Assembly: GCA_018398765.1 (NCBI GenBank)
Contig: JAHBMJ010000366.1
Location: 1 to 64,000, forward strand
Reading direction: 5' to 3'
Length of the DNA: 64,000 nt
DNA from: Chromera velia
Lineage: Eukaryota
The translations under genes and the position numbers were made by a program. Of the stretch, positions 17,842 through 62,000 are shown one piece after another. Numbering within the stretch: the stretch's first letter is position 1; each line of letters starts with the position of its first letter. The notes beneath the pieces are model-generated. The model worked only from the letters and a program-made list of their open reading frames with translations, did not search any database and had not been told where the DNA came from.

Positions 17842-17877
<36 letters not shown>

Positions 17878-20703: not shown

Positions 20704-20756
<53 letters not shown>

Positions 20757-21420: not shown

Positions 21421-21461
<41 letters not shown>

Positions 21462-22312
21462 CGTGTGTGTGTGTGTGTGTGTGCAGCCCTGTGCGAGCCC
21501 TACCGAGACTTCACTGCGAGGACGGATCCGTTTGTGTCGACAGGGTGCAGATACCAGCAGGAGGAGGGGGAAGAACCACAGGACTGCCCCAGAAGGTTTG
21601 TGGTCACGGGAGATCAAATGTCCTCCAACCCCCTCGCGTACGTTCGACTCTCCTGCTCGCCAGGACATTCAGCGGTTCGTTGGTTCTCTTCTTCTTCTTC
21701 TTCTTCTTCTTCTTCGTCTTCTTCTTCTTCTTCTTCTTCTTCTTCTTCTTCCGTTTGGATTCGTTCTGAATGATCTATTGCCTTTTCATTTCGTTGCGAC
21801 AGATGGAAAGAGAACTCTCGTGTGGCGTTTGGGGTTTTCGCTTTATGCGGGGAGACAAACAGTGTCTCTAAAAAGGATGGACGTGGAGATTACACCGGCA
21901 TTGCACATGTTGAAACCACTCAAATGCCCAAAAAGAATTTTTCGTTTATACACACACAAGCGCAGATCAGTACCCCTTTCGCATCGCTTTTCCTTTTCCA
22001 CCCGAGACGTGGTGCACAAAGCAGATACAACTCTTCCTCTGCCATCAGGAAGTAAGAACACAAGAAGTCTTTTGGCCCCGCTCTCTCCTCTACTTATGGG
22101 ACAGAGCGCATGTCTATATGTATACGTATACGTGTATGATTATGTGTATGTGTGTATGTGTATGTGTATGTGTGCAGCCCATGATAGGACCCAACAGGAA
22201 CTCTCAAGAACAGACAGTGAGGTGTCTGAACGGCAAATGGGAGGAAAGAATACTAGACTGCCAGGGTCAGTCAGCAGGTCTCTATCTCTGTGCCTGTGCG
22301 TGTTTCTCTGTT

Positions 22313-22351
<39 letters not shown>

Positions 22352-23780: not shown

Positions 23781-23820
<40 letters not shown>

Positions 23821-24431
23821 CTTGTGTTTGTATCGCAGTCTGTTTGCCGATGTGAATTCGTCTCATGAGCCGGGGGCCGTGGTTTCTTTTCACTTCTGAC
23901 TGACTCAATTGGTTGTATGCCTTTGTCGGACCTCCGTCTGTGGATGCATTGATGTGTTTCCTTCCATGTGCCTGGCTGATGGTGTATGCACCTTCTTCAC
24001 TGTCTGTCTGTCTGTCTGCCTGTCCATATTCCCTTTTTCTTTCTTGCTTGCTTGCTTGCATGAAATGCAGCAAAGTGTCAAGAGTTCCGTTCAGACTCCG
24101 ACAACGGCATGGTTGTGGGGGCGCCTGTGTACCCGGACTACCGCGCAGCCACAATCTACAACCTCGAGGGGAAATCGTTCGTCGACTACGGGGTGTTCAT
24201 GAAGGTGCACTGCAAGCAGGGGTATAAGCAGACGCCCAACGTGGGCACTCAGAGGGTCATGTGCGCAAGGGGGTCGTTCACACAACCGGAATTCCAGTGC
24301 ATTCGTCAGTTCTTGTCTGCCTGCCTGTCTGTCTGCTGCCTTGTGTCTGTTTCTGCGGTACACGAACAACAAAAAGGGACGATGTGTGGACAGAGCGATG
24401 AATAATTGAGAAGAAAGCAAACGAAGCATCG

Positions 24432-24463
<32 letters not shown>

Positions 24464-25260
24464 AACAAACAGACAGAAAACCAGCAGGCGATGTTTGTTT
24501 GAAGTTCTTTAGGATCCTGTCCCATTCCTCTTTCTGCTTGCAGGGGTCGGATGCTAACACGGAACTGTATATTAGACTCGCAAGCTGTTCGCAATTCATC
24601 ACATATGCACAGACGGAACGGAAAGAAGCAACGAATTCTCTCGATACACCCGCGGTACCGTGTTGCTTTTTGCGTGCAGCCATTTGTCCCGTGCCGATGC
24701 CGGGAGGAATTCCGTGGAACAACGAACGTCCGAATGACAAAGACAAGGCAGCCAGAATGCTGATCAACGGTGATCAAGCCCGCTCGTACACCACAGGAGG
24801 CGCTCTGGTTGCAGAGAATCCCTGGGTGGTGGAGCATGGGTCTGAGTTTCAGTTGATGTGTCTTGCAGGGAAGAATATGCAAAATGGGGTCCGAAGAGTC
24901 GGCACGCCCTATAGGAGGGAGATCGAAAAAACAAAATCCCGACAATTCTCCAAATCAACAGGATACGAAAACGCCAGCCCGTATGTAGGCAGTTGGATCA
25001 AATCCTACTACGGTTTCTACTGTGCCAATTGTGACCTGCAACGGTTGTCGAGAAAGAAGAGATCGACAATGTATGGACCATACAAACGAGTGCAGTGCTG
25101 GTTCGGGCAGTGGACAGACATGAGCTTCGAGTGCCGACAGATCTACACGTACAGATCCTACTCCAACAAAGGATGGTGGACATTCCGTACCTCCGTCGTC
25201 TGCTCGCACATGCACTCGCACGGGTTCATGAGTGGTGAGCACTCCTCTTCTTTCTTTCCC

Positions 25261-25292
<32 letters not shown>

Positions 25293-25702
25293 GTCTGTCT
25301 GTATTGCTGTTTGTCTGTCTGTCTGTCTGTGTGTCTATCTGTCTCTCTGTGTACACGAAGGAAAGAAGAACAAACATATAGTCTGTCTGTCTATCTATCT
25401 GTCTATCTGTCTCTCTGTTTGTCTCTTTGTCTGTGTGTAGTGAGTCTCTCTTTTTCCCCCCCCCAAATTTGAAGGGAGCAGCTTTCCGTGAATGAGTGAG
25501 AAGCTGCGCAACAAACGCAGCACAGCCTCCCCCCCCCCAATTTTGCGTGTATGTGTGTACATGCACGCCCTCCCCTTTAATTCTTGTTCATAAACTTCTG
25601 TGTGTGTGTTCATTCGTCAATTGGTGCAGAGGCACAGCTGCTGTCGGACGAGAGATTTGCCTCACGGGTGTCCCCCCTCTTGGTCAAGGTCTGTCTCTTA
25701 CC

Positions 25703-28656: not shown

Positions 28657-29958
28657 CTATTTGTCCCTCACTGGCATGCCAGTCCGCCGTGCGCTGCTTG
28701 CAGTGAAGTTGGGGATTGATGGAGCCATTGGATCCGATGCAACGACGGCCTGGTTTTGTACCAGCTGTGTGTGCGATTGAGTGCTGGCGGACGAAGCGCA
28801 GATGATGGTGGAGAGGCCATGGGTAGGGCTCTCGATATCGGACTTGAAGTAGGCTTGACTGTACCCGCACTCTACTTGAGGCAGCATACCTGTGCATGCA
28901 ATGAAGCGCTTGAGCTCGTCCTTCTGCCATAGTTGAACGTCCTTTCCATGTTTGGGGCGAGTGGACTTAGGTTGAAGCTTCTCCCTTTCAGGGGTGCTAA
29001 TGACAGACGCAAATCCACCTCGCTGAATGACCGACGCGTGGAATGCCAACAGATGCTCAGGCTCGATCACGTGCTCGATCACATCGGCGCTAATCACCAC
29101 TGCTCCCTGAACAATTGAATCCGGGATTGACGGCATGGCATCGAAGTCATTGATGTTCCACTCAATCGCTGCGAAACCCGCCAACGATTCGACGTTCTGG
29201 TTACGGTACCGCTCTGTGGCTTGGATTGCCTCTCTGGCAGCTTCTAAGTTGTCCTTGAAGTCTATGATGAAAAGGTTGAACCCCTTCCCGAACAGTGTGG
29301 CTGCCTTCCGCCCGTTTCCGCAGCCTAGATCTATGATCCACCCATTTGCTCCCTCCGCAAGCGAGTCGGCAAGCAGAGCGGCTGTATTGTAGATGTTGTA
29401 CTGGTGAATCTTCTCCGATCGTTTCTTTGTATCAAGGTCGTACTTCGGCTTCACGTTGCGCATGTAGTACTCTGGCAGGAACTTCCTTTCCTTCTCTTCA
29501 GCCGACACAGTCGCACAGAAGGAATCGAGGGGAGCGGCAGCTCCGCCCAACTGTGGCGCCTGTGCTGCTAGTGGTACCATCTGCGCGGTCTCCATGTTGC
29601 TCGGGCTGTGCAGTTCCGAGGCTGCGCTGGTTGAGGGCTCTGTGTTTGTGGGTGACAGGGGAGCAGCTGATTGTACAATGGGCGCTGCGATGCTTTTCCT
29701 GCGTGCGACATCCATTGCATCCGACCGAACTGTTCCTTCAAGCCTCGGCACAAGGTCTTCCCTTTGGAGAGGGACTGTCGACCGCTCTGGAGGGGGAAAC
29801 GGCGCAGTAACAATGCCTGCAGCAGTCATCCGAGATTCGTCAGACTCCGACGAATGAGGGCGAGAGGCCATTTGCATAAAGGTCAGAAAGCAGATAGTGG
29901 CCATGGCAACCAGGGCAAAAAGCTGCCACGAGAAGGGCCGGCGGAGGACGACTGCCAT
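28657..29958 (-). CDS. Intronless type II membrane class I SAM-dependent methyltransferase
   Basis: ATG 29958 (MAVVLRRPFSWQLFALVAMATICFLTFMQM, a TM anchor), P/S/A-rich stem, motif I IIDLGCGNG, ADVIEHVIEP, ISTPER; stop at 28657. Confidence 0.85.
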   Translation of the reverse strand: MAVVLRRPFSWQLFALVAMATICFLTFMQMASRPHSSESDESRMTAAGIVTAPFPPPERSTVPLQREDLVPRLEGTVRSDAMDVARRKSIAAPIVQSAAPLSPTNTEPSTSAASELHSPSNMETAQMVPLAAQAPQLGGAAAPLDSFCATVSAEEKERKFLPEYYMRNVKPKYDLDTKKRSEKIHQYNIYNTAALLADSLAEGANGWIIDLGCGNGRKAATLFGKGFNLFIIDFKDNLEAAREAIQATERYRNQNVESLAGFAAIEWNINDFDAMPSIPDSIVQGAVVISADVIEHVIEPEHLLAFHASVIQRGGFASVISTPEREKLQPKSTRPKHGKDVQLWQKDELKRFIACTGMLPQVECGYSQAYFKSDIESPTHGLSTIICASSASTQSHTQLVQNQAVVASDPMAPSIPNFTASSARRTGMPVRDK

Positions 29959-30673
29959 GTCGGTGATAGAGGTAAATTTCGGACTTTTCAATCAGACTCG
30001 CAGTAACTGTTGCCTATATGTGTTGCATGGGCCTCTTCGTTCAAAACATCAACCGTAAGAACTCACGTGTGAGATTGAGGCACGATTGACCCGTTTCAGC
30101 GACTACTTGCGCTACAAATAATCGGTTTGGTGCACACAACAGCACGAGAATCAATGTGAGGAGCTGTTCTATATATATTACGGGATACACGAGGCGACAG
30201 ATATATAGCAATACATATATATAGGTCAGTCATTTTCCTTTCTCGGCATGCATGCATGCATGGGGTTTTTGAGTTTGTCCAAATGCATGGGTGCATATTG
30301 GGGGAGACGCATGCGTGATCGCCGTGATCGACTCGCGATCTCTCTCATTTTTTTTTTTTTTTGCATTGTGTGGGGTCCATGCCTATACAGGCCGCCTGCA
30401 GTATATATACATATACACCTCTATGAAAGTCAAATCCACTGAGTGGATCCAACATTGAAGAGCACGCGGACAGGAAAGATCTGGCAGAGCCACAAGGCGG
30501 GAGACAGAACCATTCAATCCACTCGTCGAACAACTGCTGTTCATCGACGTGTTAATTGTCGGCATTGATCTGTACTGTCGTCCATTGATGTATATATATA
30601 TACTAGCTGCCGCGTATAATTGCGTTGACTTAATATTGATTCGACGTCCAACCCTGCTTTTGAGAGATCGCAC

Positions 30674-37617: not shown

Positions 37618-40600
37618 CATCCAACCGTGTATCCCGGACAGACATGTTTTTCTGTTTTACGCGGAAATCAGTGCAGCGTAAGGCTTTGATTTGACTCCCC
37701 GTCCAACCTCCCTCCCCAACTTCCTGTAGGAGGGATGGCGTTGATTCTCTTGGCGAGCGGGATGGACTATCGATCGATCGATCGATCGCACAATGTTATG
37801 CAATCAGCCGGCCTGTTTGAAGAAAGACAAACAAAGAAAATGCATCGTGGCATCCTGAGAAAAGAAAGCTCTTGAGCAGAACAGCTGAAGCAGTGAGAGA
37901 GAAAGAAAGCCAGAAAGAAAAGAGACGGTCCGGGATCTAGAAGACGATCGATCGAACATGGAAAGCCTCCCTCGCGTGGGTGTGCGGCAAGATGATGAGG
38001 AGGCACTATTTTGCAGTTCGGTTGATTGATGTTTTCTTTTCTTGTTTTCCGTTTCTCCTTTCTCCCTCCTGCCTCCCCTTTTTCTCTCTGTCTGTCTGTC
38101 TGTCTGTCTGCAAGTCTTTTTGTCCCGCCGTTGGCTTCCTTCCAAACTCTCATGCATGCATGGGGGCACCCACCTTCACGTAGGTTTCGCGCTTGCTTGG
38201 AGTGTCACAGTTGCCGTTGAGGAACACGACGGCGTTTCTTTTTTCGCTGAAGGGCAGAATGGGGTCCTGCAGAACGACCAGAAGGTCAAACAAACAGGCA
38301 GGCAGGCAGGCAGGCAGGCAAGAGTGGAAACATATCGATCTGCAAAAGTACCCAGAATGCTCACGAATGCATCGACACATACTATCACATGCAGACCCTG
38401 GCTGCAGCTGGACTCACTCGAGCAGGCAGTCGATCGTTCAATCATAATTAAAAGAAAAGAAACTGTCACTGAGCTTATATTGCAGAAACCCTAAGCAGGC
38501 GAGAAGGGGTTGGTGAGAAGGGCTAGGGACACAGGTATTGATAGTGAAGCACAAAGCGCCCACTCTCGCCCTCTCTCTCTCTCTCTCTCACAGTCTGTTG
38601 CACACCTTGGAGAGAGGACGGAACGACGAGAGAGGACAGAAGGGCGGAGGAATCAGTGAGGGCTACAGAAAAGGAGACAAGGTAAAAGATGGGGGGTGGA
38701 AAGAGAGAGACAAAGAATCGAATACGAAGGCAAACAAACAGTTGATCAGACAGAAAGTCAGACAGTCAGGCAGAAAAAAAGCAAGATCAACAAATGGATA
38801 GACACACATCCAGGCAGCTCCAAAGGAATGCAAAAATGCAAACATGGGGACATATGCAAAAACCAAGAAAGGTGGGGGGTACAGACGGCCACAGTCACAA
38901 CATCATCGATCATTCTGTACATATGTTTGTATTTGCATATGTATATAGATGTATGCGGCACTGGCGCCCCCAACCATGCACAGTTTGCCCTCAGTATTTC
39001 TTTCATCAATCGATGCACACACAGGCGACCACACCCGCATGTTCTCATCGATACCATCGTGTTGGATCGATCGCTCGAAAGGAAAGAAAGAAAGACTGCA
39101 TGCATATGCGCATGCATGCATGACTAAGCCCTTCGATCTACACAACTCACGTAGACCCTCTCGACCATCTTTGTCGTCAAACACGGCATCCACTTCTGCA
39201 GGCAGGCAGACAGGCAGACAGGCAGGAAGACAGAATTCATCGACGTATATAATATCCCTTCGATGACTTGTTGATCCTTTCGGTCCATAAGGAAGACAGG
39301 AAACCTCGATATCCGCGTGCGCAAACATGCAAGATAGGTTTCTTTTCCATATGCACACATAAAAATCTTGAGTCTGTGCTTGAGAGTCGACAATTCGAAA
39401 TGTGAGAAGATGCACAGAAAACAAATGCATCATCCATGAACGTACAAACGGCAACTCACGCGCACAGGCAAACAAAATTCTCTCTCTACACGCATGCATG
39501 CATGCATGATCGTCTTCCCAGATCCCTCCCTGACTCCTAATGGATCGATCGATCGATCTGCATCAGCACCCAGAAGCACCCTTTTCTTTCTTTTCCTTTC
39601 CTCTCCTTCCCTTAATGACTTTGCGTCCACAGAGACAACGTACACATTTATGCGATACCAAAATGGATCTCTGTTTCATTCCATACCACCCCGACACCGA
39701 GCCAGACCGACCGACCGTACTCTCCTTGAGGTACGTGGACGACATGTCAAATCTGCAGGGAGGAGGCATGCCATCAGTATACAAGGGGAAAGGGAACAAA
39801 TAGAGGAGGCAAACCTTCACAACGAAATTAATTCAAGTGTATGGAAGGAAGCATCCAAATGTTGATATCATTCCAAACCAACACATACAACGTCATGCGG
39901 ATGTGCTTCACTACATGACAGACCATCAGAAAAGCTGAACAAATGACTGTGGGCGGAGGTGACAGACCGACAAACAGGCAGATAGGCAGGCAGGCAGGCA
40001 GGCAGGCAGACAAACAGACAAAGAGACAGACAGCCAAACAGACAAAAAAGGGCGGACAAACAGACAGACAGATAGACAAACTGGCAAACAAACAGATAAA
40101 AAGACAATTACAGAACAGACACTCATGCCTGCATGACCTCAATGACCGACAGGCGCAAAAAATCCGGATTTCTGAAAGCCGGTACGCGAACTGCCGACTC
40201 GATCCCGGTGAGAGCCGTCATCTGCCAAGGGAATGTCTTCTGGAAGATTGGCCTCAATTCCTCCGAAGATCCTTTCAACCCGACAAACCCATGCCACATC
40301 AGGACCTCAGCATTTTGGTTGTTCTTGTACTTGGGATGTGTCCTAGAATAAACTTCGCATGGAACCCGGCAGCCCTGAAACGGTCCGTCCGGGTACCTCA
40401 AATGCGACCTTGACATAAACTGGACGGTCACAGTTTTGTTACTTATTACAGGGGTGACCGAAGAAGGCTCTGGTGACACGTCAGGGGTGATTGCGCCTTT
40501 CGATGAGGTCTCATCAGTCAGTGCAGCCTCTTTCGTAATGTTACGTGCACCCGCCGTTCCTCCGAAAGGCCGGTCTTCTCTTTGAGGCGAAATACCAGCA

Positions 40601-41555
40601 GAGGGATGACCCACTCCTTCTTCTTTGGGGGCAGCAGAAGGCGGGGACGTCTGCAAATTCTCCCCCCCCCCGGTCGTTGCAACTAGCTCTGGTTCCGTTT
40701 TTTCGGAGGCGCGGTCACCAGCCAAAAAGACGGCCCCTGGACCGGGCATCGCACCCGTTTTCGCTTCTCCCTGTGGCCGAAGTGATTTTGCTTCATTCCC
40801 CCCATGACTCAAACCAGCACCCCCTCCATCTCCCTCCTGTTGAGTCTGCAGCAGCTCACTCTTCGACGCCGACTGCTGCACGCCGACTTTCGTCAGTCCA
40901 GCAGTCTGGAGTGAGTTGTTGCCGTCTGCTGAACTGCTGTTCGCGTCCATTGAGGAGGAGGGGGCTTCTGCGGTCCTGGGCTGGAGGAGACCCGACGCCG
41001 CCCTCTCCCCCTCAGCCTCGTCTTCTCCTCCCGAGTCGGGCAGTCGTGCTCCGTCCGTCTTCTCCTCTTTCAAGGAAGCAGGGAACAAAGAAGGAAAAAT
41101 ACACACATTTACATACACTTCAGGCAGGAAAACACCGTCCGTCTCGCTGCGCATGCAAGGCGGAACGCGTACTCGCTCAAACTCAGTACCGCTTGCCTTT
41201 CTATATATGTATACGTGCATCCGTGCATTTCACAGAGTGTCGATATCATTACCCTGGACGGCAGCAATGGAGCCGACGTACCTCTTTTCGCTTCTTCGAG
41301 CTCACATACGACCTTCAGCCAGCACTCCGCGCCTTCAGGCTCACACTCTTCCTGAACAATCCGGTGAGTGCCCTCGCAGTGACGCAATGGAGAAGGAAGA
41401 GTTCCCTCTGGACGGAAACACACGTCTTTTGCACTGGGAATCGATTTCTCTTCCCCCAAAACGAGAAATTTGCGGACTTGCACGAACTGTCGCCAGTACA
41501 TGACAGAAAGGAGAACCAAGATGCAGGCGGCGCCAATGACGAAGCAGCGCGTCAT
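33369..41555 (-). CDS. GT10 alpha-1,3/4-fucosyltransferase-like type II membrane protein, copy 2
   Basis: Exons: 41555-~41478 (TM MTRCFVIGAACILVLLSVMYW), ~41065-40151, 39752-39716, 39195-39151, 38266-38174, 37530-37484, 36951-36868, 36013-35933, 35227-35142, 34584-34442, probably 33861-33795 and 33538-33369. Motifs VVFLNGNCDTPSKRETYVK, VDAVGACLHN, SKFCLVFENSITKDYVCEKVFEGLQAGCLPL..GPANIREFLP, LMHNETAYNERLKWK. Confidence 0.88.
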
Positions 41556-42266: not shown

Positions 42267-43372
42267 ATGATCGCTGTTATCCTTGCCCGCGGGGGCTCCA
42301 AGCGATTTCCTGGCAAGAACGTCACTCTGCTCTGTGGTAAGCCTCTGATAGCGTGGACAATCGAGGCAGCACTGGGCTCAGGCCTATTCTCTCAAGTGGT
42401 CGTTTCCACAGACTGCGAGAAGATCAAGGCAGTGGCCGAGCGCTACGGAGCTTCTGTGCCCTTTCTTCGTCCTGCCGATCTCGCCTCTGACGATGCCAGA
42501 GCTGTGGATGCTCTGGAGCACTGCTTGCAGACACTTGGAGTGTCCTCTGGGAAGTGCTGCCTGCTGCAGCCAACCAGTCCAGTACGTTCTGCAGAAGACG
42601 TGCGAAGGGCCGCAGAGGAATTTGAGAAGTGTCCTAAGGATGTTGTGCTCGTGTCAGTTATCCCTTCGAGCAGCAGTCCCTTCAAGACGCACACGGTCAC
42701 TACAGACAACCTCATGGCTCCCGTGACGTCTGCGCAGTTTTTTTCGACAAATGCACAGTCGCATCCACCGACATACTCCGAGAATGGGGCCATCTATTTC
42801 TTCCATGCGGACAGCTTCTTTGCCGCCAAGCCCCAGACCGCCTGCGGTGTTTACGGGTACAAAGCTGCCCCCTTCGTGATGAGCCCAGAGACAAGCGTGG
42901 ACATCGACAAGCCCGAAGACCTCGAGAGAGCGGTGAAGGCTCTCGCCCCCCGTCTCCGTCAGGCGAGGCCTCCCTTCCTTATTGGGAACAGAGTCATCGG
43001 CCCAGACCAGCCCCCACTGGTAATCGCAGAAATAGGGATCAACCATGAAGGCGACTTTCAAAAGGCCATCAAAATGGTTGACGACGCACACGCGGCCGGC
43101 TGCGAGATCGCGAAATTTCAGTGCCACGTCTGCAGCGATGAGATGACGAAGGACGCCGGTCAGTCCATTTCTGAAAAAAAAGCCCGGTCTGCGAAAACCC
43201 TATTAATGTCTGACCTTGATGCAGAGCGTGTACACATGTAGAAAGAGTCTTGTCACAACATCAGCAGCAAAGCACGTCGGCCGGTCAGTCTGTTTGAAGA
43301 GCCGAGCCGCTTCTGGTTCGTGAACTGTTGCAATTTGACGACTTAACGGTTCCTTTCTGTCTGTCTGTTTTT

Positions 43373-43412
<40 letters not shown>

Positions 43413-43990
43413 GCTCACTCTCTCTCTCTCTCTCACACACACACGCACAATCCCACGTGCATGCCGGCATGCAGGGAGCGTGATCCCCGGCAACGCGACG
43501 GAAAGCATCAAGACGATCATGGAACGGTCAGCTGGCATTTCTTCTTCCTCTTTCGATCAAGAGAACGTTCAGCTTTTCTTTTTTTTCGTTCCCCTCCTTT
43601 CCTTTCCTTTCCTCTTTCAAGGAAACGTACACGCTTGCTTTCTCTTCCTCTGTCTCTGTCTCTCACATGCCAGAAAGAAGCACAGCATCCCTTCACTCAC
43701 GTCTGCGTGCCTGGTCATCTCCTGACTCTCTCTCGCAGAGACTCCCATATCAGCCTGCCTGATCCACCCATGTACCCTTCATTTCCTCCCCCCCCCCTCA
43801 TTTGAGAGAGAGAGAGAGAGCCCTTCCACCAATTCCTATTCGCACATCCCCCTAGCTCTCTCCCGAGCCCACTACATAGTGCACAGTACCCATACAGCCC
43901 CCCCTCCGGCATTCATCGGTCTTCGCATTCTGTTTGAACGAAATCTCCGCTGAGTGCGCACATTTTTGTTTCTGTCTGTCAGTGTGTGTG

Positions 43991-44025
<35 letters not shown>

Positions 44026-46175
44026 CCCTGCATGGATGCTTTCATGCATGAATGCATGCAGGTGTGCGCTGACAGAGGAGGAGGATCGGAAGCTGAAGGA
44101 GTACGTCGAGGCCAAGGGCATGATCTACATGTCAACACCTTTCTCAAGGGCGGCAGCGGAGCGCCTGAAGAAAATGAACGTGGACTGCTACAAGATTGGG
44201 TGAGTGGGTGGGTGAGTGGGGAGGTGAGAGGGTGGGGGAAGGGGGATGGATGTGTTCCCTCTGCCACTGTTTGCCTTCTCATCTACACGATTGGTTAGTT
44301 GTCTCCTTCTCTCTCTACCTGTGTATCTGTTTGTCTGTTTGTCTGTCTGTCTGTCTGTCTCTCTGTCTGTCTGTCTGCCTGCCTGTCAGTCTTCTTGCCT
44401 GTCTGTCTGTCTGCCTGCCTGTCTGCCTGTCTGTCTGTCTGTCTGTGTCTCTGGTGCTCTCCGTCGCTGCCCCCTTTTCAAACCAGAACCCGGTTCCTGT
44501 CTTTTCTTCTCTGCCTGCCTCCTCGGGGTCTTCTCTGCTTTTGTTTGCACATGCGCTCTCTCTATTGTCCCCCGTCCTTGTGAATGTGTGTCTCCCCCTG
44601 CCCTCTGTTTGCACATGCGCTCTCTCTATTGTCCCCCGTCCTTGTGAATGTGTGTCTCCCCTCCTTTCCCCTCCTCTCCTCACGCATGCAGCTCCGGTGA
44701 GTGCAACAACTACCCTCTGATCTCTCATATCGCCAAGCTCGGTAAGCCGGTGATTCTGTCCACCGGCATGAACGACATCGCGTCTGTGGCCCCCGGAGTC
44801 GAAATTTTCAGAAAGCACAGGACCCCCTTCGCACTCCTTCACTGCACCTCCATGTACCCTACACCATATGAGCAGGTAGGGGGTGAGAGAGAAACGAAAA
44901 GAAGCCTCAGGCTGATAGCACACACCCCTTGGCGCGATCACCTGATCAATAGCAATGAAGGGAAAAGCCTGAATCTTGCATATTTGATCAGACAATAGGC
45001 CGTAGTCCTCACTAGTGGTGTATCTATGAGAGGAGTGAAATTTCAGAAAGAGTGGACTGTGTTTGAGGGGCTTTTTTTTTCATTCCGTCTGCTCTGTTCT
45101 ACTTTCTGTAAGATTGTTGGTCGCCTCCTTTTCATACAAATTCTGTCCGCATCTTTCTTTTGTCATGCCCCCCTTCCGTTTGGTTCTTTGGTCTGTTCAG
45201 ATTATGCAGTGTCTGTCCTTTTTCTTTCTGTTGTGCCCATTTGTATTTAGCGTGTTCACACGAGCCTTCTTTGTCAGCACTTCTTCTGGAGCCTTCCGTC
45301 CGTCCCCGCTTTCCAGGAAGGATAGAAGGAAGGAAGAGAGAAACGTCGATCGAGAAAAGAAGGGGACATGAGGAATCCTGCTGATAATACGACCATCCAC
45401 TTCCTTCCCACACTGCTGCTCTCTAGCTGACTGGCCCTCCAGGAGCTAGGAGGATCGATCCGCCCGTCCATTTCCTTCCACTCCACTCGGCTCCGCTGGG
45501 TTCCAGTTTGTGCTGCTGCCCCGATTTGGTTTGTCAAATCGATTGATTGGTTGATTGATTGATTGATTGGTTGATTGAATGGAATCATTATTTTTTGTTT
45601 GTGATTGATTGATAGATGGATGCATCATCATCATCATCATGTGGTGTGGTGTGGAGTACGTGATTGATACATCCATGATCCTCCATGCATCGATGATGCA
45701 GGTCCGATTGGGGGGCATTGCGGAATTGGAGCGCGCGTTCCCCGACGCCGTGTTGGGTCTGAGTGATCACTCCCTGGGCATTTGGACGTGCCTCGCGGCA
45801 GTCCCCCTGGGAGCATGTATCCTTGAGAAGCACTTCACGTCTGACAAGACCTGGCCGGGGCCGGACGTGCCGATCTCGATTGACCCCGACGAACTCCGTG
45901 ACCTCATTCAGGGAAGCAACATCATCTTCCGATCCCTGGGGGGAACTAAGGAGATCCTGAAGGAAGAGCAGCCGACGATCGACTTCGCCTATGCGTGTGT
46001 GGTGACCATCAAGCCCATCGCGAAGGGCGAGGTGTTCTCGATGGAGAACGTGTGGGTGAAAAGGCCTGGTACGGGGGAGATTTTCGCCAAGGATTTTGAA
46101 GTGGTGTTAGGAAAGATGTGCATGGCAGCGCTGGAGACCGACATGCAGCTGAAATGGGCCGACGTGCAGAAGTGA
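42267..46175 (+). CDS. neuA-neuB: Fused CMP-nonulosonate synthetase (NeuA) + N-acetylneuraminate synthase (NeuB/SiaC-type)
   Basis: Exons 42267-43158, 43475-43526, 44062-44199, 44692-44875, 45702-46175 are in frame. NeuA: ILARGGSKRFPGKN, VSTD, FLRPADLASD, LLQPTSPVR, ENGAIY, SVDIDKPED. NeuB: PLVIAEIGINHEG, VIPGNA, STPFSRAAA, YKIGSGECNNYPLI, ILSTGMN, LLHCTSMYPTPYE, GLSDHSL, ILEKHFT, and an AFP/SAF-like tail NVWVKRPGTG. Confidence 0.95.
44542..44662. repeat. Direct tandem duplication (64-bp period) in NeuA-NeuB intron 3
   Basis: TGTTTGCACATGCGCTCTCTCTATTGTCCCCCGTCCTTGTGAATGTGTGTCTCCCC starts at 44542 and again at 44606. Confidence 0.9.
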
Positions 46176-47769: not shown

Positions 47770-48906
47770 TTAGAGCTGGCCCAGGACTCCCTCGAGGTGC
47801 TTCATCATCCTACTCACGGCATGACCGTCGCCGTAGGTGGTGTCCCTGTCAAATCTCTCCTTCGGGTGCTCAAGCAACGCCTGCAGCACCTCATCCGAAT
47901 TCTCCCCCTTCACGGAAAAGACGTTCGGCGGACAGGTGCGGCCCTGCTGGCGGGTCCCGACGTTGACTGCGGGTGTGCCGAAGAACGCAGCCTCCCTGAT
48001 GATCGCGCTGCTGTTGCCGACTATCGCCTTGCAGTTTTTCAGTAGAATGATGAACTCCTCGTGGGGGAGAGAGGTCATGCAGTTGACATTCTTGGAAAAT
48101 GTGGGGGAGGTTTTCTGAATTTCGTGGAGCGTCTGGATCATGTCTTTGCTCCCCGGGTCGATATTCGGGTAGAAGAGGATGGCACGTTCTCCCGTTCGGT
48201 CTACAGCCTCCAGGATCGACCTGTACTGTTTCACGGTGTCCTGGATACTGCAGGTGTCGGGATGGTACATGATGATGAAATATTCATGGGGGACTACTCG
48301 GTGAGTAACCAGCAGGTCTTCGGTCGAGTGTCCACTGCCGATATGTTCCATTTCGAGGAACACATCGTACGATGGACATCCGGTGCAGAAGACTGCGGAG
48401 TTTTCCTCACCCATTTCAATCACTCGCATCCTGGCTGCCTCCGTACATGTGAAATGAAGATCGGAGAGTTTCGATATCGAATGTCTCAGCTTTCCGTCAA
48501 TCGTTCCGGACAATTCCCCTCCCTCAAGGTGCACTGTGAAGATTTGCAACAAAGTGGAAGCAGATGCCACTCCGAAAGCGTCAAAACGGTCACCGTGCAC
48601 AATCACAATCTTTGGCTTAGCGAGGGCCAAAAACTGGGAGACCTTCAGGATGGTCAACGCCACCGAGTCGGCCATGTTGTTGGTATCATTCCCCGCCGCC
48701 ACGGTGGACACTTTGGTGGCACTCTTGGCGAAGTCCTTCTCCACAAGGCGGAAACTGTACCCGCTTTCAATCAGAAGATGACTGCCAATCACCAGTGGTA
48801 CAAGCTCAAACAGAGGAGACTTCTCAAGGGCAAGCATAAGGCCCCTCAACTTGGAATAGTCCGCTCGGGTGGAGGTAACAACACACACCTTGACGGGTTG
48901 CTCCAT
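47770..48906 (-). CDS. neuC: Hydrolysing UDP-GlcNAc 2-epimerase (NeuC / GNE epimerase domain only), intronless
   Basis: ATG 48906; VCVVTSTRADYSKL, GSHL, VHGDRFDA, HLEGGELSGTID, RHSISKLS, GCPSYD, YPNIDPGS, VGNSS, VNVGTRQQGR, YGDGHA; stop at 47770 with no kinase domain. Confidence 0.95.
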   Translation of the reverse strand: MEQPVKVCVVTSTRADYSKLRGLMLALEKSPLFELVPLVIGSHLLIESGYSFRLVEKDFAKSATKVSTVAAGNDTNNMADSVALTILKVSQFLALAKPKIVIVHGDRFDAFGVASASTLLQIFTVHLEGGELSGTIDGKLRHSISKLSDLHFTCTEAARMRVIEMGEENSAVFCTGCPSYDVFLEMEHIGSGHSTEDLLVTHRVVPHEYFIIMYHPDTCSIQDTVKQYRSILEAVDRTGERAILFYPNIDPGSKDMIQTLHEIQKTSPTFSKNVNCMTSLPHEEFIILLKNCKAIVGNSSAIIREAAFFGTPAVNVGTRQQGRTCPPNVFSVKGENSDEVLQALLEHPKERFDRDTTYGDGHAVSRMMKHLEGVLGQL

Positions 48907-51042: not shown

Positions 51043-52972
51043 TATGTGCGTGTGTATGTGCGTGTGTGTGTGTGTGTGAGAGAGTGCAGATGCCGAAAGG
51101 AACGTTCAATCTCAGCGAGGTGGACCCGGGCGAGTTTGCAGGCGCGTACAAGAGAGACCAGGTCTTCAAACCGGGTCTCTTCGATCTCACGGAGGCCTTT
51201 TTGAAGTTGAAGGAGGGGGACTTGCCGCCTCCCTCTCTGCCTTCGGTTGAAGACCAGCTGGAGCTGGTTCGGTACTACGAGCGGATTGAGGGTCAGAGGA
51301 GCGACAGTCAGGTGTGGGTGGTCGGCTGTGGAAACATCGGTATGAGACATCTGCAGGGGATAGCAAAATTCAAGGGCGCGCCCTTCACCTTGAAAGTGGT
51401 GGAGAAAAGCGATGAAGCCCTGCAGAAGGCATCCAATGCCTTTCATGATGAGGCAAAGAAGGGGAGCGTGGATCACATCTTGGTCCCCTTCACCGACTGT
51501 GCCTCCCTTGTCGGGCAGCAGCCTGTCGATGCAAACGTGATTTTGATCGCAACAACAGCAGACGCAAGGTTTCAAGTCCTAAAAGAACTTTTCTCGGCCG
51601 AGGTGGGGGACCCTTCATCGTTCATGCCGACGAGGATCCTCATTCTTGAAAAGGTGAGCTGGGGGGGGAGGGAGGGAGGGAAAGTTTGCAAGACAGAGAG
51701 GGGACGAGAAGCCACGCAGACGGGGAGAGGCGGAAGGAAGGTATGAAGGACGTCCTCTTTGTGTGTTTAGATTGGGACGGAGAGCTAATTTGAGGAACTA
51801 CAGAGAAAAGACATGCAAAGTGTGAGAGGAAATAGAGGAGAAGAGGAAGCGCGTGCGAGACGGTGAGAAGAGTGAGGAGAAGGAAAGAAAAAAAGTCGAG
51901 AGGCGAAGAATGCAAGAAGAAAGAGCAAAACGGGGCAGGCAGATCAAGTGGAGGAGAAAAAAGAGACAGACAGGTGAGTAAGTTTAGCATGCAAGGAAGA
52001 GAAAGAGTGCGAGGGTGAAGAGAAAGGAAAGCTTTCGGGAAAAGAAAGGAACGTAAAAAGAATAAAAAATGGACACAAAAAAAAATAGAGAGGTTGAAAT
52101 GAGGACATCTTCCCTCCCTGTTTCTTTCACAACTGCATGCAGCCTCTGTTCCAGAGAGAGAGGGACTACGACGAAGCCCCCCATCTGTTCTCGCGTCTCG
52201 GTCTGGACGTCTACGTCCACCTCCCCCACCGCATCCACCCCCATATCCTCCAGTTCAAAGACAAACTTGCTGCTGCTGCTGCACAGGTACGAGACGAGAC
52301 GAAACGAAAAATGAAAAGCCACTAGATGCATTCATTGGAGAAGAGAGAAACAAAGAACATGGATAGATCGTGAGAATAGACCGCTGCATGCTGCTTGGTG
52401 TATGGGCTGTATCAAAGAGTGAAGAGGCAAGATGACACGTGTGGAGGCGTAACTTTCTCTCTCAAAAGCGTTTGATTCCTGCTCGTTTGTCTGTCCGTGA
52501 CATGCAAGCTTTAGATGTATGCGATACCTCATGCTTCACTGCCCTCACGGTCGGGTCTCTTTCCTTTTTGTACCTCAAACCGTCTCAATCGATCCATCGA
52601 TCCTGAATGTCTTCAGAAGAGAAACATCGATCTGCATGGTGTTCGCTGCTTATTTCTCTTCTCTCTGTCTCTCTCTCTCTGTCTCTCTCTCTCTCTCTTT
52701 TTTGTTTTTAATGCATGCATGCATGCATGCGCCTGCCTGCCTACCTGGGTGCCTGCAGGAGCCTGTGCACATGAGGTATGGGGGTTTCCACTGGGGTCTG
52801 GGTTGCAATGGCATCCACGGTCTGGACCTGTTTTTGATGATGAACGGCGAGGTGGGGCGACCGGACGACCTCCAGTTTGACAACTCAATGGTCAGAATGA
52901 AGCTCAAAAGAAAGAAAGCGCATAGATCCATGCGTAGTAAGGCTTTGATTCAAGACGCAACGCAAGTATTGA

Positions 52973-56584: not shown

Positions 56585-58086
56585 TCACGAATAAGTCGGG
56601 CATCGCACGAGATATGGATGTGGTGCAAGGAAGAACGATTCAAGATTTGCTGCCACGACAGCCTCAGCAAAATCAGGGTCTATACATGAGTACTCCTTCG
56701 CGAGAGCCTCTGAAAGATACTTGGGGAACTCTGATCGAGAAAAAAGTGCCTTGGTCGTTTCGTCTCTTTGGCATGGTGACTGGCCTGCATCAGTTCCCTG
56801 CCAGTCCTTTCCGAGCTTTCTGTATAACTGTGCGTACTGCGAATCCGGTGACCCTTTCAAGTCATAATTCCCAGCCCCGAAATCCCTTTTGAGAGCTTTG
56901 AAATGGAACCACGCGTTCACGAACGTTCTCCCCACCTTCCCTTGTCCAGACAGTTTCTCACAGCGGCCCCCTTTGATGTAGACGGTCTTCTGGCTGATGC
57001 GGTGGAGAATGCAATCACCATTACCATTGGTCGGCCTCGTTGCCCACACACACGGGACGCCCTTTCCCCCCGGATCTCTTATCAGGTTGACTCCTTTGAA
57101 GCTCAGCGGTCTGAAATTGCTCTCTGGCAAATCAAGCAGTGTCTCCCGAGCATTCTGCATTGCTTCTCCAAAGACTATCGGGTTGAGAATCGTGTCGCCA
57201 TCCAACTTAATGGCATGCGAGAAGCGTGCACGACTCATGCAGAAGTTGTAGTAGTTCACCAGAGAGTGCGGGCTTGTTGGCGGTAGACTCAAGAACTCTT
57301 TTGTGCCTTGACCATAAACCTTAGCCATGTACTCGAAGACCTTTAGTTTTTTTTTGTCCTTCTCTTCAGGGGATGCCAAGAGTTCTCGTAGCCTGTCCTC
57401 TGTGCAGTCCGAGCAGTCGTTGAAGCAGACGACCACTTCATCGAGAAAATCAATCGCAGACATCACGGCACCGCTGATAAATTCACATTCATTCCTCACG
57501 CGAAAGTAACCGGTGATGCCCCTCTGTCGATCGGATTCTTTCAACATCGACGTCTTAAATTCGAAAGTCTGGACCCGCACAATGGGGTCGGTACTATTGG
57601 CGACATTAGCGGAATGTTGGAAAGGGAGAGCGGCTGCTCAGCCACGCTGCTCCCTGCTGGAAGCCCCACCGCTATGCTCTCTGTGCCCGTCCCCGTGTCT
57701 ACAGAAAGCAAACTAGTGAGGCTGCTGTTGATGCTGCTGGCACTGGTGGGGGCGACGGTGCTGCTGTTGGAGGCCGTGGCAGTGGTGCTACTGCTACTGC
57801 TATCGCTACTGCGCCGAATGCTACTGGTGGTGCTGCTGGCGTTATTGATTCTGACAGCAGGTTCCAGAAACGCCTCCCAAGGTTCCGACCCAGGGGGGGC
57901 AGCCTTGTGTCGGGCCACAAGCTCAGGGTCAACAAATGAGGACTCCTGCTTGCTCAATTGCGAGGGATCGAGCGTGCCTTTATCGTTCTCCACAAGCACG
58001 GACGAAAACCGCACAGTGGAGTGGAAGATGAAGAGGGAACAAAGGATGACAAATAGGAAGGGAAGCATGACAGACCGCCGCCTCAT
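56585..58086 (-). CDS. Type II membrane GT-A fold glycosyltransferase resembling the CgtA (beta-1,4-GalNAc-transferase) / GT2-like group; reading frame broken near 57610
   Basis: 5' ORF 58086-57541: TM MLPFLFVILCSLFIF plus Ser/Thr stem. 3' ORF 57580-56585: GYFRVRNE, VCFNDCSDCTE, SLVNYYNF, AIKLDGD (DxD). The two overlap in frames one base apart. Confidence 0.75.
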
Positions 58087-59040
58087 TTTTCACCACCCAC
58101 AGAAGAAAATACAACAACAAAAAAGCCCGTGCAGTTAGACAGGGGGCGACTGCCTTCGGGCAGTCGGTCGATCTAAATCGATGAACCCGATCGAATTCTC
58201 GGCAAATGGCAAATCACGTTTTTGGTGCATGGATCACATCGTTCTTTCGATCGAGCATCTGAACGCTGGTCGCGGCTTCCAGCTAGACGAACGCCACCGG
58301 ACAGACAGAAATCCAGACGGGCAGCTATATATATATATATATATATATAGACATGCAGGCAAGTATTTTTGCAGTCGATCTTGCAATGTGCATGCATGCA
58401 TGAATGTATCGGTTTCTTCTTTTAGAATTATAGACTGACAGATGTGGCTAAAAATGTTACTATATTAAGGAGGCACACCCAACCTCAGGTGAGTGCCTTA
58501 TTGGGTGTTCTGACACTCATGCAGGCTCTGCGTGGCTCCGTCAAATCACGCGCGCGTCGATATATTTATATCCGCAATTATATATATATATATATATATA
58601 TAAGTAGAATTTTTATGCGAATTTCCGCTCATGCAGGGCCTCGGATTTACCCGAGCTGCCCTCCGAGGACGCACAAACTTAATTCTCATGCATGCACACT
58701 AGCTTGCCTTCGCGCGCGAATACGCGCGAACAAACTAAAAAAATAAATCGATATCGTGTCTCTCTCTCTCTATATATACATGCAGATGCAAAAATATATA
58801 TATAAATTAAAGAGAGACAGTCAGTGTCAGTCACTGCTTGAAAAACGATCCAGCAGCGGATTCTTCTGAACGCAAAACAATCCAGAAAGGTGTCGGAGCG
58901 CGACTGTCATCACTGGTGGAAGGCAGGAAGGAGTGGAAAAGTGGAAGTGGGAAGCAGTCTGTTGTACAAAAGGTTTGTACGGGCATGCAACCCGATGTCC
59001 CCGGGGACTGAGCCCTTTTTGTAGACCCGTCTTTCTAGCA
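58087..59040. promoter_or_regulatory. Putative bidirectional promoter between the CgtA-like gene and GT29
   Basis: 954-bp head-to-head spacer with three (TA)n tracts, TGCATGCA (58389, 58689) and CGCGCG runs (~58549, ~58711). Confidence 0.5.
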
Positions 59041-62000
59041 ATGATTAGACTGAATCGCTGCGGTTGCCGGTACTTGATCTGCATCGCGCTTTTCGTGGCC
59101 GTAGTCAACACATTAGTGGGTTTGCAGCTGTTGAACGGCACTGAAATTCCATTTTCAATCGTCCCCTACCAGACTGAGTGCAACTGCACTGCCGCAGTTG
59201 CAGAAGCAGTTGCAGCCGTTACAGCTGAAGCGGCAAGAGAGAGGGAAGAAATCTTGGCTCGTGTTGCAATGCAGGCACAGGCAGCAGCCGAGTCGACGCC
59301 GCCGGAGCCACCGATCCCAAACAAAGCAGCGGGGACGGGGAAGAAGACGCAGCGGCAGCCTGCTGCACAGAAAAAAAAGAAAGTAGTGCTAAATGAGGAG
59401 TTACTGCCAACAGGCCTAAGTATTTGGGAGGTTCCCACAATCTCACGGAGAATAGCCGATTTGCCCTGGTCGAATCTGACCGCTTTCCGTGCGGCTTTCC
59501 CCAACGATACAAGTAGCTCTACGATCAAGCGGGTTCGCGGTACGCACGACTACGGGGCCGAGGAGCAACTTCGCAGCTTCTTCATCCAGCACGGCCTCGC
59601 GAACTTGCGATTTCCGGGTGTGAACGCCACGCAGCGGGTGGAATGGGACCGCCCTCCGTTGTTAGGGCTCCTGGAAGGGGAATTGAAGGGTCCTGTGCTG
59701 GACCACGTGGCGGCGCCCAAAAACGGTCGCCTTCCCTTTTCGATCCCTTCTAAACTTTATGATCAGTGGAAAGGACTGGTGAAGGGCCTGCTGGAGAAGA
59801 GACCCAGATTCCATCTTGACTCCACAGTGCCGAAGGGATCTGAGTATCCCACCTGTGCTCTCGTGGCCAGTGGTCCGGATATGCTCAATGCGAAGTTTGG
59901 CGCAGAGATTGATGCTCATGATGTGATTTTTCGGATGAACTGCGCTCCTGTCAACGGCTTTGAGTCTCATGTAAGTTTGAGAAGGAAAGAACATTCTAAT
60001 CAATCTGTCAGTGACGCCTTTGAAGCTCAACGAGTGAGTGGGAGAGTCAGTCAGTCAATCCGTGAGTTAGTCATCAGTCAGTCAATTTGTGTATGTATTC
60101 ACGGACAGCGATTCTGCTCTTGGTGTTGTTCGTTTTTGAATCGTCGGCTTCCTTCCACATTCTCTCTCAATCGTCCTTTGAAAAGGTCGGTCTCCGTGCC
60201 TGCCTGCAGGTTGGCTCTCGCACCACCTTCCGCACAACATATCCGGAAAGTACGAGGCAACTGAAAAGGCACTGTGAGAGTGACTCGACCGATCTTAAGA
60301 ATGAAACAAAAACTGACATATGGTGTGAGGGTATCGTCGACCTTCCGTCAGAAGGGGGCACAGTCATTGGGATGGTATTTCACCCACAAAACCTGGAGTA
60401 TTACCACTGTGGGGCTCTGGGATGTCCAAAAAGTTCCAAATACAAATTCGCAACAGAGTACGTGCCCTACAGCGCGGACACGTTTACAGTCCTGAATCCA
60501 GAAGTAATCTGGATCGCACAGAGACTAGTCCCACGAAACGAGACGCAGGGATGGCCTTCTGCGGGGGGGATTCTGGTGGCGCTGACAGGATTGGTAGGTC
60601 ACTCAGCGCTTTCAACGGCCTCTCTCACTCTGTCTTCTTTCTTTATGTGTGCCTCTTTATTTTCATGTCACTTTCTTTTTGCATTCATGATTACCAGAAC
60701 CCTAGTCTATGCTCGTGACATCGTCTCTCTAGATTTTCTTCATCGCTTATCTCTCTCTGTCTAGATGCTCGTGGCAGTTGTTGTCTCTCCTCTTTTTTCC
60801 CCTTTTGACTTTTGTGTTTCTGTGCGTCTGTACCGACCTCTCTTTGTCTTCTCCTTTCCTTTTTCGCTCCCTCTCCCCCCCACCCCCCCNCCCCCCTCTC
60901 TCTCTCCCTCTCTCTCCCTCTCTGTTTCTCTCTCTGCCTCCCTGTGCCGCTCTGCATCTCTCCACGTCCGCGTCTGAGTCGGTCTTCTCATGCGATTTCT
61001 TTGAGCTTGTTTTCTCTCCATCTCTCCATCCGTCGACCCATCCATCCATCAATCCATCCATCCATCCGTCCGACTCTGTCTACCCGAATTTCCTTCTGGC
61101 TCTCTCCCCCTCTCCCTTTTCTTCTTCTGCTTGCGCACATTTTTGAGGGTCCAGCTGACGCCTGTTTTTTTTCGCTGGACTTGTGAATGAATTGGGTGTT
61201 TGCGTCGACTGATTTCTCTCCCTCCCTCCCTCCTTCTTTCTGCATGTACATACGTGTTACAGCGGTTTCACATTTATGATGCACTTTTCTTTTGTATCAG
61301 ATCGGAAAGAACAAAAACAAAAGTTCAAACGTTTACTGTGCCAAAGTTGTCGGATGACCAGTCTCTGAAGATTTATTGAATAAAAAAGGAGAAAAACGTG
61401 AATTGCTGTGTATGCATCCTTGATCTTTGTTTTTATTTGTGATATATGCAGGTGTGTCGGTCGACAACCCTCTATGGGTTTCCCAGCTCATATGCTGAGT
61501 ACTCACTTAAAGGACATGAAGCAATCAAAGAGTCTGACTTTGTTCGAAGGTGGCACTACTATGATTGTGGCGTGGCCACATAGCACAACAGTCTCTTTGG
61601 AGTCAAAAGTTTACGGTCTTCAATGACCCCCCCCCCCCNNNNNNNNNNNNNNNNNNNNNNNNNCCCCCCAATTTAATAACACTTTAGTTTAACAAAGTGT
61701 CATGATATGCTGTCATTAAATGAAAGTCATCTTAATGAATTGTTTAATATGTATTGATATGTTATAATTCTAATAATCTGTGAACATGTGCTATATATAC
61801 TTAAATTTTGTGTCTACCGTTTCAAGTTGTAACCGTATGATGGTCTGTATGTTTCAAATAGTTTGATATAGAATAATTCAAAAATAAATACAAAAATTAA
61901 AAGGAAAAAAACTTGATATACTTAAAAAGCGATCTAAAGCTATTTCTAAGAAGGATAAAGAGGAAGACTGCCCACTGAGGCTCTGTTCAAATTTTTGATG

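What the first reader, a model, noticed from the sequence alone, without database searches (positions are those of the whole stretch)
42267..46175. NeuA-NeuB single-polypeptide fusion with a bacterial-type synthase carrying four spliceosomal introns
Seen: the NeuA domain runs into NeuB within one exon (..ERAVKALAPRLRQARPPFLIGNRVIG..), so the fusion does not depend on my splice predictions. Established: motifs such as EIGINHEG, VIPGNA, STPFSRAAA, KIGSGECNNYPLI and WVKRPG match my recollection of the Neisseria SiaC / Campylobacter NeuB1 Neu5Ac-synthase type rather than animal NANS. Inference: horizontal acquisition, fusion and intron gain, which may channel Neu5Ac directly to CMP activation.
Basis: partly seen in the sequence, partly recalled or inferred. 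Interest (0 to 1): 0.85.

Follow-up and report, generated by a model that had tools for sequence, protein, structure and literature searches.

The report
Sialic-acid gene cluster shared between algae
The alga Chromera makes one spliced transcript that joins two bacterial-style sialic-acid enzymes, and the gene sits in a small cluster found in the same order in a second, probably green, alga; the cluster likely makes activated sialic acid by the bacterial route and may convert it into a stereoisomer not yet reported from eukaryotes.

Summary
Observation confirmed. The gene is Chromera velia Cvel_3341. Five exons give an open 579-aa NeuA-NeuB-SAF protein. Single contigs in 3 of 4 runs laid skip all four GT..AG introns. 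The public 571-aa model omits exon 2 and its VIPGN loop. The synthase is of the Neisseria SiaC type (387 bits against 141 for PseI).

The fusion is not peculiar to Chromera. Sixty of 150 family representatives carry both domains, and Picochlorum has a related fusion. The new part is the context: NeuA-NeuB(+), NeuC(-), a tandem Gfo/Idh/MocA fusion(+) and a GT29 sialyltransferase. The first three recur in the same order and orientation, without introns, on contigs of a probable green alga (L084). Bacterial operons neuA-neuB-neuC-gfo-gfo hold the same families.

Likely route: UDP-GlcNAc to ManNAc to Neu5Ac to CMP-Neu5Ac, then NAD/NADPH epimerisation at C8 or C4 (inferred, untested). Against it: NeuA lacks a conserved arginine, and no sugar was measured. 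Channelling is unsupported. Earlier papers listed this NeuC, this GT29 and a C. velia synthase singly; my searches found no report of the fusion or the cluster. The scan's earlier notes held nothing on it.

The parts
42267..43158 (+). Exon 1: whole NeuA (CMP-nonulosonate synthetase) domain, a short linker, and the first ~63 aa of NeuB
43159..43474 (+). Intron 1, 316 nt, GT..AG, phase 1
   Evidence: joint in X1-X3
43475..43526 (+). Exon 2 (52 nt), carries the VIPGN sugar-binding loop; missing from the public model Cvel_3341
43527..44061 (+). Intron 2, 535 nt, GT..AG, phase 2
44062..44199 (+). Exon 3, NeuB barrel (STPFSRAAA)
44200..44691 (+). Intron 3, 492 nt, GT..AG, phase 2
   Evidence: piece table
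44692..44875 (+). Exon 4, NeuB barrel (SGECNNYPLI)
44876..45701 (+). Intron 4, 826 nt, GT..AG, phase 0
45702..46175 (+). Exon 5, end of the NeuB barrel (both metal His) and SAF domain (KRPG), stop
47770..48906 (-). NeuC, hydrolysing UDP-GlcNAc 2-epimerase, intronless, 378 aa, no kinase domain; the sequence called 'Chromera3' by Petit et al. 2018
   Evidence: TIGR03568 343.6 bits, cut-off 235.9; contig cover
49775..55477 (+). Tandem Gfo/Idh/MocA oxidoreductase fusion (G1-G2), many exons; the G1/G2 junction lies inside one open frame (51147-51656); exon structure predicted only
   Evidence: fold of the L084-type homologue
56588..58089 (-). Membrane-anchored CgtA-like GT-A glycosyltransferase in two overlapping frames; membership of the cluster uncertain
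   Evidence: Atlas 0.97-0.98 to CgtA/GT2 clusters; no Pfam hit
59041..61583 (+). GT29 sialyltransferase, type II membrane protein, several exons; the sequence called 'chromera' by Petit et al. 2018; 3' end uncertain
   Evidence: PF00777 E 1.1e-12

Best explanation
This is a spliced, single-transcript NeuA-NeuB fusion gene of Chromera velia that sits with NeuC, a double oxidoreductase and a sialyltransferase in a cluster that likely makes CMP-activated sialic acid by the bacterial, kinase-free route and probably epimerises it before transfer. Steps: (1) NeuC hydrolyses UDP-GlcNAc to ManNAc (family match shown, activity inferred). (2) The NeuB domain condenses unphosphorylated ManNAc with PEP to Neu5Ac (SiaC-type sequence shown, activity inferred). 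(3) The NeuA domain adds CMP in the cytosol (no signal peptide seen; one substrate-binding arginine is lost). (4) The G2 half (NAD fingerprint) oxidises and the G1 half (NADPH fingerprint) re-reduces one hydroxyl, most likely C8 or C4, the two hydroxyls shared by Neu- and Leg-type sugars, since the pair accompanies both (inferred). (5) GT29 transfers the sugar in the Golgi (inferred). Origin: a bacterial neuA-neuB-neuC-gfo-gfo operon entered one eukaryote, where neighbours fused pairwise and neuC was inverted. The cassette likely moved between algal lineages, and Chromera added introns afterwards. The fusion is best read as co-expression of former operon neighbours, not as channelling.
For: Single spliced contigs. 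NeuB best solved relative N. meningitidis SiaC, 387 bits against SpsE 171, Leptospira 144, PseI 141; TM 0.89 to 1xuu. By counting on the alignment, the equivalents of Nm E25, K53, Q55, T110, K129, S132, G133, E134, Y186, H215, E234, H236, D247, F288 and R314 are kept, and exon 2 restores N74. NeuC is over its cut-off and has no kinase. The same trio with the same orientation, plus GT29 and a nucleotide-sugar transporter, lies on L084/L085/L087. Trees join Chromera with L084-type sequences for NeuC (99), G1 (96), G2 (95) and NeuA (97.4; concatenated 90.8). The HxC.DEM motif is in all 7 fusions of that set, in 0 of 118 stand-alone top hits, and its DNA pattern has 0 matches in 185,579 prokaryote genomes (positive control). 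Bacterial operons with neuA, neuB, neuC and both gfo genes: 5 of 80 GTDB loci; the pair also lies beside Leg-type NeuB in L181, L187, L188. Cofactor fingerprints: G1 GxGxxA-type ending in Ala and G-R in 7 of 8 rows each; G2 GxGxxG plus acid in 10 of 10. Precedent: ElaA, a Gfo/Idh/MocA enzyme, is proposed to oxidise C8 of CMP-Leg (PMC13656337, passages); EpaA/EpaB were shown to convert Pse to 8-epi-Pse (PMC12053666, passages).
Against: No sugar or enzyme was measured. NeuA has N-A-Q where N. meningitidis has R-Q (Arg165); Ala is there in 2 of 117 NeuA rows and all close relatives keep Arg. NeuB has Ser for Nm Asn184, which PMC7371886 links to Pse enzymes; 88 of 118 nearest stand-alone NeuBs share it. 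TIGR03569 stays under its cut-off (343.9 against 399.65, public model). The NeuB tree alone does not join Chromera with the green-algal group; AU only fails to reject it (p 0.12). G1/G2 have no close solved relative (at most 18% identity; no sequence hit), and known epimerase pairs use an SDR as reductase. The predicted GT29 end has HYY but no following VS motif. L084's organism is inferred from a weak B3 hit (below cut-off) and from grouping with Picochlorum. No animal NANS sequence was in my trees.
Confidence: 0.5

Rival explanations
1. The cluster makes and transfers plain Neu5Ac. The oxidoreductase fusion acts on another sugar or is a passenger.
For: NeuC, SiaC-type NeuB, NeuA and GT29 suffice for Neu5Ac sialylation. 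75 of 80 GTDB loci with this NeuB type show no G1 within 6 kb. One plasmid G1 has no neu gene within 7 kb.
Against: The G1-G2 gene stays next to NeuC in both eukaryotic loci, and most bacterial copies found lie in nonulosonate clusters.
Confidence: 0.27
2. The NeuA half is impaired in Chromera. The protein works as a synthase and another CMP-synthetase activates the sugar, or the pathway is decaying.
For: Loss of the Arg165 equivalent with no Arg beside it; its role in binding the sugar carboxylate is recalled, not read here. Atypical GT29 end. Petit et al. list two other 'C. velia CMAS' sequences.
Against: R8, K12, K17, R68, Q101, T103, K140, N173 and D212 are kept and D214 is in the sequence; the frame is intact and transcribed; the model folds well (pLDDT 92.7).
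Confidence: 0.12
3. Origin rival: the cassette is ancient in eukaryotes, inherited vertically and lost many times, not moved between algae.
For: Deep divergence from L084 (NeuA 40%, NeuC 45%, NeuB 65%). Relatives in several supergroups: a G1-G2 fusion in the euglenid Lentomonas, NeuC-NeuA fusions of the Micromonas type, an intron-rich eukaryote L081/L082.
Against: Order and orientation of three genes are kept between an alveolate and a probable green alga. The distribution is very patchy (named eukaryotes: only Chromera and Picochlorum). L084 genes are intronless. Related fusions occur in a giant-virus genome (L007), so vectors exist.
Confidence: 0.3
4. One reading: Chromera itself took the genes from a bacterium, fused them, and channels Neu5Ac from synthase to synthetase.
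For: In NeuB trees Chromera and the P0002 cluster sit among bacterial enzymes, apart from the green-algal group. The model has pTM 0.84 with a short helical linker.
Against: NeuA, NeuC, G1, G2, the HxC motif and synteny all tie Chromera to other eukaryotes. Fusions arise repeatedly from abutting neuA-neuB genes (29 of 80 GTDB loci by my count). No tunnel or kinetic evidence.
Confidence: 0.08

Closest known systems
Neisseria meningitidis SiaA/SiaB/SiaC (NeuC/NeuA/NeuB) CMP-Neu5Ac pathway; PDB 1XUU, 1EYR
   Same: Same three enzyme families; SiaC-type barrel plus SAF with catalytic and metal residues kept; no kinase or phosphatase step seen.
   Different: NeuA and NeuB are one polypeptide; spliceosomal introns; Asn184 to Ser and Arg165 to Ala; linked to a eukaryotic GT29 and a double oxidoreductase.
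Acinetobacter baumannii epimer modules elaABC, aciABCD, epaAB
   Same: Oxidoreductase genes beside the CMP-synthetase gene that invert a hydroxyl of a CMP-nonulosonate; ElaA is a Gfo/Idh/MocA enzyme.
   Different: Those act on Leg or Pse and use an SDR reductase. Here two Gfo/Idh/MocA domains are fused, with a Neu-type synthase. Homology to ElaA or AciC/AciD was not testable.
Animal pathway GNE, NANS, NANP, CMAS, GT29
   Same: GT29 transfer; Petit et al. 2018 place this very NeuC, with Micromonas, as sister to the deuterostome GNE epimerase domain (supplement text).
   Different: No kinase fusion, SiaC-type synthase instead of NANS, clustered genes.
Micromonas commoda epimerase-CMAS fusion (XP_002506929, noted in Petit et al. 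2018 supplement) and Prymnesium parvum Kdn pathway (PMC6200933)
   Same: Microalgal nonulosonate synthesis; fusion of pathway neighbours; NeuC in the same clade.
   Different: Micromonas fuses NeuC to a NeuA of another lineage; Prymnesium uses Man-6-P and separate enzymes.

Membership tests
SiaC-type Neu5Ac synthase (N. meningitidis NeuB / C. jejuni NeuB1) | NeuB barrel plus SAF domain, nearest to SiaC rather than LegI, PseI or SpsE | tested here: met
SiaC-type Neu5Ac synthase | Active-site residues of NmNeuB, Gly at the Pse-discriminating position, intact 70-85 loop, SAF Arg314 | tested here: inconclusive
   All counted residues kept except Asn184 to Ser (alignment; criteria from PMC7371886 and PMC8208679 passages)
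SiaC-type Neu5Ac synthase | Uses ManNAc, not ManNAc-6-P | not testable with these tools
   needs an assay
TIGR03569 NeuB_NnaB equivalog | Score over 399.65 bits | tested here: not met
   343.9 bits for the public model; 8 SiaC-type relatives also fall short (357-382), so the model favours the other NeuB clade
Pseudaminic acid synthase PseI | TIGR03586 over 340.25 bits; Phe near C2; upstream PseB/C/H/G genes | tested here: not met
   218.6 bits; Gly kept; no such genes among the window ORFs scanned
Animal-type NANS | Groups with NANS; Asp at 134 and Val at 314 | tested here: not met
   Glu134 and Arg314 kept. No NANS sequence was in my trees; Vieira 2021 places a C. velia synthase outside the NANS clade
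CMP-sialic acid synthetase NeuA/CMAS | CTP-binding and catalytic motifs (ARxxSK, KN, RP, QPTSP, K142, DID) | tested here: met
CMP-sialic acid synthetase NeuA/CMAS | Arg of the RQ motif in the dimerisation hairpin (Nm Arg165; role recalled) | tested here: not met
   N-A-Q in Chromera; no RNA-contig variant at that codon
Hydrolysing UDP-GlcNAc 2-epimerase NeuC | TIGR03568 over 235.9 bits | tested here: met
   343.6 bits
CMP-nonulosonate epimerising oxidoreductase pair (ela/aci/epa type) | Two NAD(P) oxidoreductases encoded in a nonulosonate cluster | tested here: met
CMP-nonulosonate epimerising oxidoreductase pair | Homology to ElaA/ElaC or AciB-D, and epimerase activity | not testable with these tools
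GT29 sialyltransferase | Sialylmotifs L, S, III and VS in order | tested here: inconclusive
   L and S present; predicted last exon has HYY but no later HxxxxE, and an assembly gap follows

The most novel reading that the evidence does not exclude
A compact, mobile sialylation cassette built from a bacterial operon by two gene fusions has spread between distant algae. It coats Chromera with a sialic-acid stereoisomer (8-epi- or 4-epi-Neu5Ac) made by an undescribed double Gfo/Idh/MocA epimerase. Its NeuC belongs to the lineage reported as sister to the animal GNE epimerase.
Probability: 0.28. Interest if true: 0.85.

Novelty: new variant of a known kind. Interest (0 to 1): 0.62.

Why it matters
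Sialic-acid synthesis in protists is known mostly as scattered single genes. Here a whole route is physically clustered in a photosynthetic relative of the apicomplexans and kept in order in a second alga. That gives a defined test set for the open question of which eukaryotes make sialic acid, by which route and from where. The neighbouring NeuC is the protist sequence reported closest to animal GNE, so the cassette bears on the origin of the animal pathway. The uncharacterised oxidoreductase pair, also found in bacterial Neu and Leg clusters, is a candidate for an unassigned epimerisation step. The corrected gene model restores a substrate loop, without which the protein would look dead. A natural NeuA-NeuB fusion is also of use for one-pot CMP-sialic acid synthesis.

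Tried and rejected
Contaminant bacterial DNA: rejected (spliced introns; eukaryotic neighbours). Read-through artefact or two proteins: rejected (exon 1 spans the junction; one contig per run). Fusion unique to Chromera or to eukaryotes: rejected. Direct giant-virus donor: not supported; the L007 group has a different NeuA lineage and no HxC motif, and viral scans with P0002, the motif and the Gfo fusion found nothing; the structure search of viral proteins gave no close fusion. One origin for all eukaryotic fusions: L081 NeuA joining the Chromera set alone is rejected (AU p 0.013), though not together with its whole group (p 0.26). Trp in SLGxWT as a eukaryote marker: rejected (9 of 118 stand-alone). 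Careful bootstrap trees and the treekit AU test did not finish; supports quoted are SH-aLRT from short searches. No RNA test of the Gfo and GT29 genes was obtained. Genomic context of Picochlorum and of the P0002 cluster could not be read; no whole genome is held. The Gfo-fusion search returned 5 proteins and missed Chromera's own model, so absences there mean little. E. coli genomes have no DNA match to G1. Literature: 10 searches found no report of the fusion or the cluster; Lewis et al. 2009 was not held, and subscription papers are not covered. PMC12654856 did not mention Arg165. Earlier scan notes concerned prokaryotic clusters only. No complex prediction was run: the dimer exceeds the size limit.
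Full report
Observation. Five exons at 42267-46175 give a 579-aa open frame with four GT..AG introns. Exon 1 holds the full cytidylyltransferase domain and the start of NeuB. Contigs from runs X1-X3 each cover the coding exons as one piece and skip the four introns at the predicted places. These runs are of one study and the tool only guesses that they are RNA, but exact removal of four GT..AG introns is what a spliced transcript gives. A database protein identical over exon 1 names the gene as Chromera velia Cvel_3341. That 571-aa model reads on past the first donor and skips exon 2, losing VIPGN, which is the substrate loop of the Neisseria enzyme (PMC7371886 passages).

Type of synthase. 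The best solved relative is N. meningitidis SiaC (387 bits; PseI 141), and the model matches it at TM 0.89 (folded from the public model). Stand-alone database hits reach 65-71% identity. In trees the SiaC-type group is separated from Leg-type fusions with 100 support, and Chromera lies inside it, sister to the unnamed P0002 cluster (99). Counting on the alignment, the catalytic, metal and PEP residues are kept. Asn184 is Ser, as in 88 of 118 nearest stand-alone enzymes and 21 of 79 GTDB loci. No NANS was in my trees. Vieira et al. 2021 (passages) already list a C. velia synthase outside the NANS clade.

NeuA half. The CTP and catalytic motifs are kept, but the Arg of the RQ motif is Ala, while P0002, P0003, P0004, P0008 and P0009 keep Arg. 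From recall this Arg binds the sugar carboxylate, so reduced activity is a real possibility.

How common is the fusion. Of 254 proteins then held, 98 hit both domains: 37 SiaC-type by motif (cluster members included), 59 others in the same order (one a fragment), 2 reversed. Of 150 representatives at 50% identity, 60 carry both domains. One of 80 viral loci is fused, a giant-virus MAG with NeuC beside it. The architecture is therefore recurrent, and fusion of operon neighbours explains it.

The cluster. Downstream in the window lie NeuC on the minus strand (over cut-off; covered by contigs), a many-exon gene with two Gfo/Idh/MocA domains, a CgtA-like transferase and a GT29 sialyltransferase. 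A DNA pattern for the motif KFQ[CS]H[VI]C.DEM found 0 viral, 0 GTDB and 7 metagenome matches (control). Three of the seven (L084, L085, L087, one organism) show GT29(-), NeuA-NeuB(+), NeuC(-), G1-G2(+), GT61(-) and a nucleotide-sugar transporter, with the four pathway genes intronless. The core three match Chromera in order and orientation. A weak B3 domain nearby and grouping with Picochlorum at 91-100 support suggest a green alga. NeuC, G1 and G2 trees join the eukaryotic copies (99, 96, 95; Chromera G1 and G2 rows were partial). NeuA gives 92.5 and 97.4, the concatenation 90.8, NeuB alone is unresolved, and AU tests do not reject one clade (p 0.20, 0.12, 0.74). The two GT29 genes match only at motif L and may have been recruited separately. 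G1-G2 fusions also occur in Lentomonas and unnamed contigs.

Bacterial counterpart. Five of 80 GTDB loci carry both gfo genes; Vibrio sp. D404a and a Bacteroidota MAG have neuA-neuB-neuC-G2-G1 in a row. In 401 sampled genomes G1 occurred in 3 (one the centre); the other two have G2 adjacent and a Leg-type NeuB. Of 3 plasmid hits, one lies in a Leg-type cluster, one near a NeuC-like gene, and one has no neu gene within 7 kb. G1 shows an NADP(H) fingerprint and G2 an NAD(H) one (interpretation from textbook knowledge). The fold is that of sugar dehydrogenases, with no close solved relative. Oxidoreductase pairs beside CMP-synthetases are known to epimerise nonulosonates (PMC13656337 opening part and passages; PMC12053666 passages; PMC5595891 discussion and passages). 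Because the pair goes with both Neu- and Leg-type sugars, C8 or C4 is the likely site. This is inference.

What was known. Petit et al. 2018 (section 10, supplement parts 51-52, supplement searches) used this window's NeuC and GT29, placed the NeuC as sister to deuterostome GNE, proposed bacterial replacement of the pathway in alveolates, and labelled a Micromonas epimerase-CMAS fusion. The motif SGECNN occurs once in that supplement, in the Neisseria entry, so this fusion is not among its sequences. Wagstaff et al. 2018 (passages) does not mention Chromera in the main text; I did not see its supplement. Ten searches found no account of the fusion or the cluster.

Verdict. The gene is real and correctly read. 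The fusion alone is a recurrent architecture. The shared eukaryotic cassette with a probable epimerase is a new variant of a known kind of pathway, with clear tests. Confidence: fusion transcript about 0.97; ManNAc-using synthase about 0.8; working NeuA about 0.75; epimerised product about 0.4; transfer between eukaryotes about 0.55.

Noticed in passing
L081 and L082: Two AT-rich (36-38% GC) fragments of an intron-rich eukaryote carry a NeuA-NeuB fusion with introns in the linker and just before VIPGN, 5 nt from Chromera's intron 1. NeuB has the HxC motif but NeuA is of another lineage, so fusion or domain exchange happened twice.
   Followed up: partly
L007 7986-11720: A giant-virus MAG has its own NeuA-NeuB fusion, a dehydratase and a NeuC in the same clade as Chromera's. 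Its NeuA (and that of P0030) lacks the stretch with the RQ motif.
   Followed up: partly
L001 7983-12379: A phage-like contig carries NeuB, NeuC, a dehydratase, NeuA and a short GT29-like sialyltransferase in one run; L002 and L003 give similar hits.
   Followed up: no
window 56588-58089 (-): CgtA-like GT-A transferase with a membrane anchor and Ser/Thr stem in two overlapping frames (frameshift or small intron). In Campylobacter, CgtA adds GalNAc to sialylated acceptors (recalled).
   Followed up: partly
window 61452-61583 (+): The predicted last GT29 exon has an HxxxxE motif before HYY rather than after it, and an assembly gap follows.
   Followed up: partly
window 4112-5872 (-) and 40126-41229 (-): Two paralogous open frames with long low-complexity stems (a membrane anchor is seen in the first) and a shared VTVQFM..YPDGPF.GC.VPC..EVLMWHG segment, resembling the start of GT10 fucosyltransferases (recalled; no Pfam hit on these pieces).
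   Followed up: no
window 28660-29991 (-): Intronless membrane-anchored SAM methyltransferase, possibly a glycan methyltransferase; the window is rich in glycan-modifying genes.
   Followed up: no
window about 12500-25400 (+): Large many-exon gene with sushi (CCP) repeats.
   Followed up: no
P0051, P0052, P0058: NeuC-NeuA fusions of the Micromonas type; their NeuC groups with Chromera and L084 (98), their NeuA with the giant-virus group.
   Followed up: partly
window 42267-46175: RNA contigs of X1-X3 differ from the window at nine coding places, four of them amino-acid changes, so they come from another strain or allele.
   Followed up: yes
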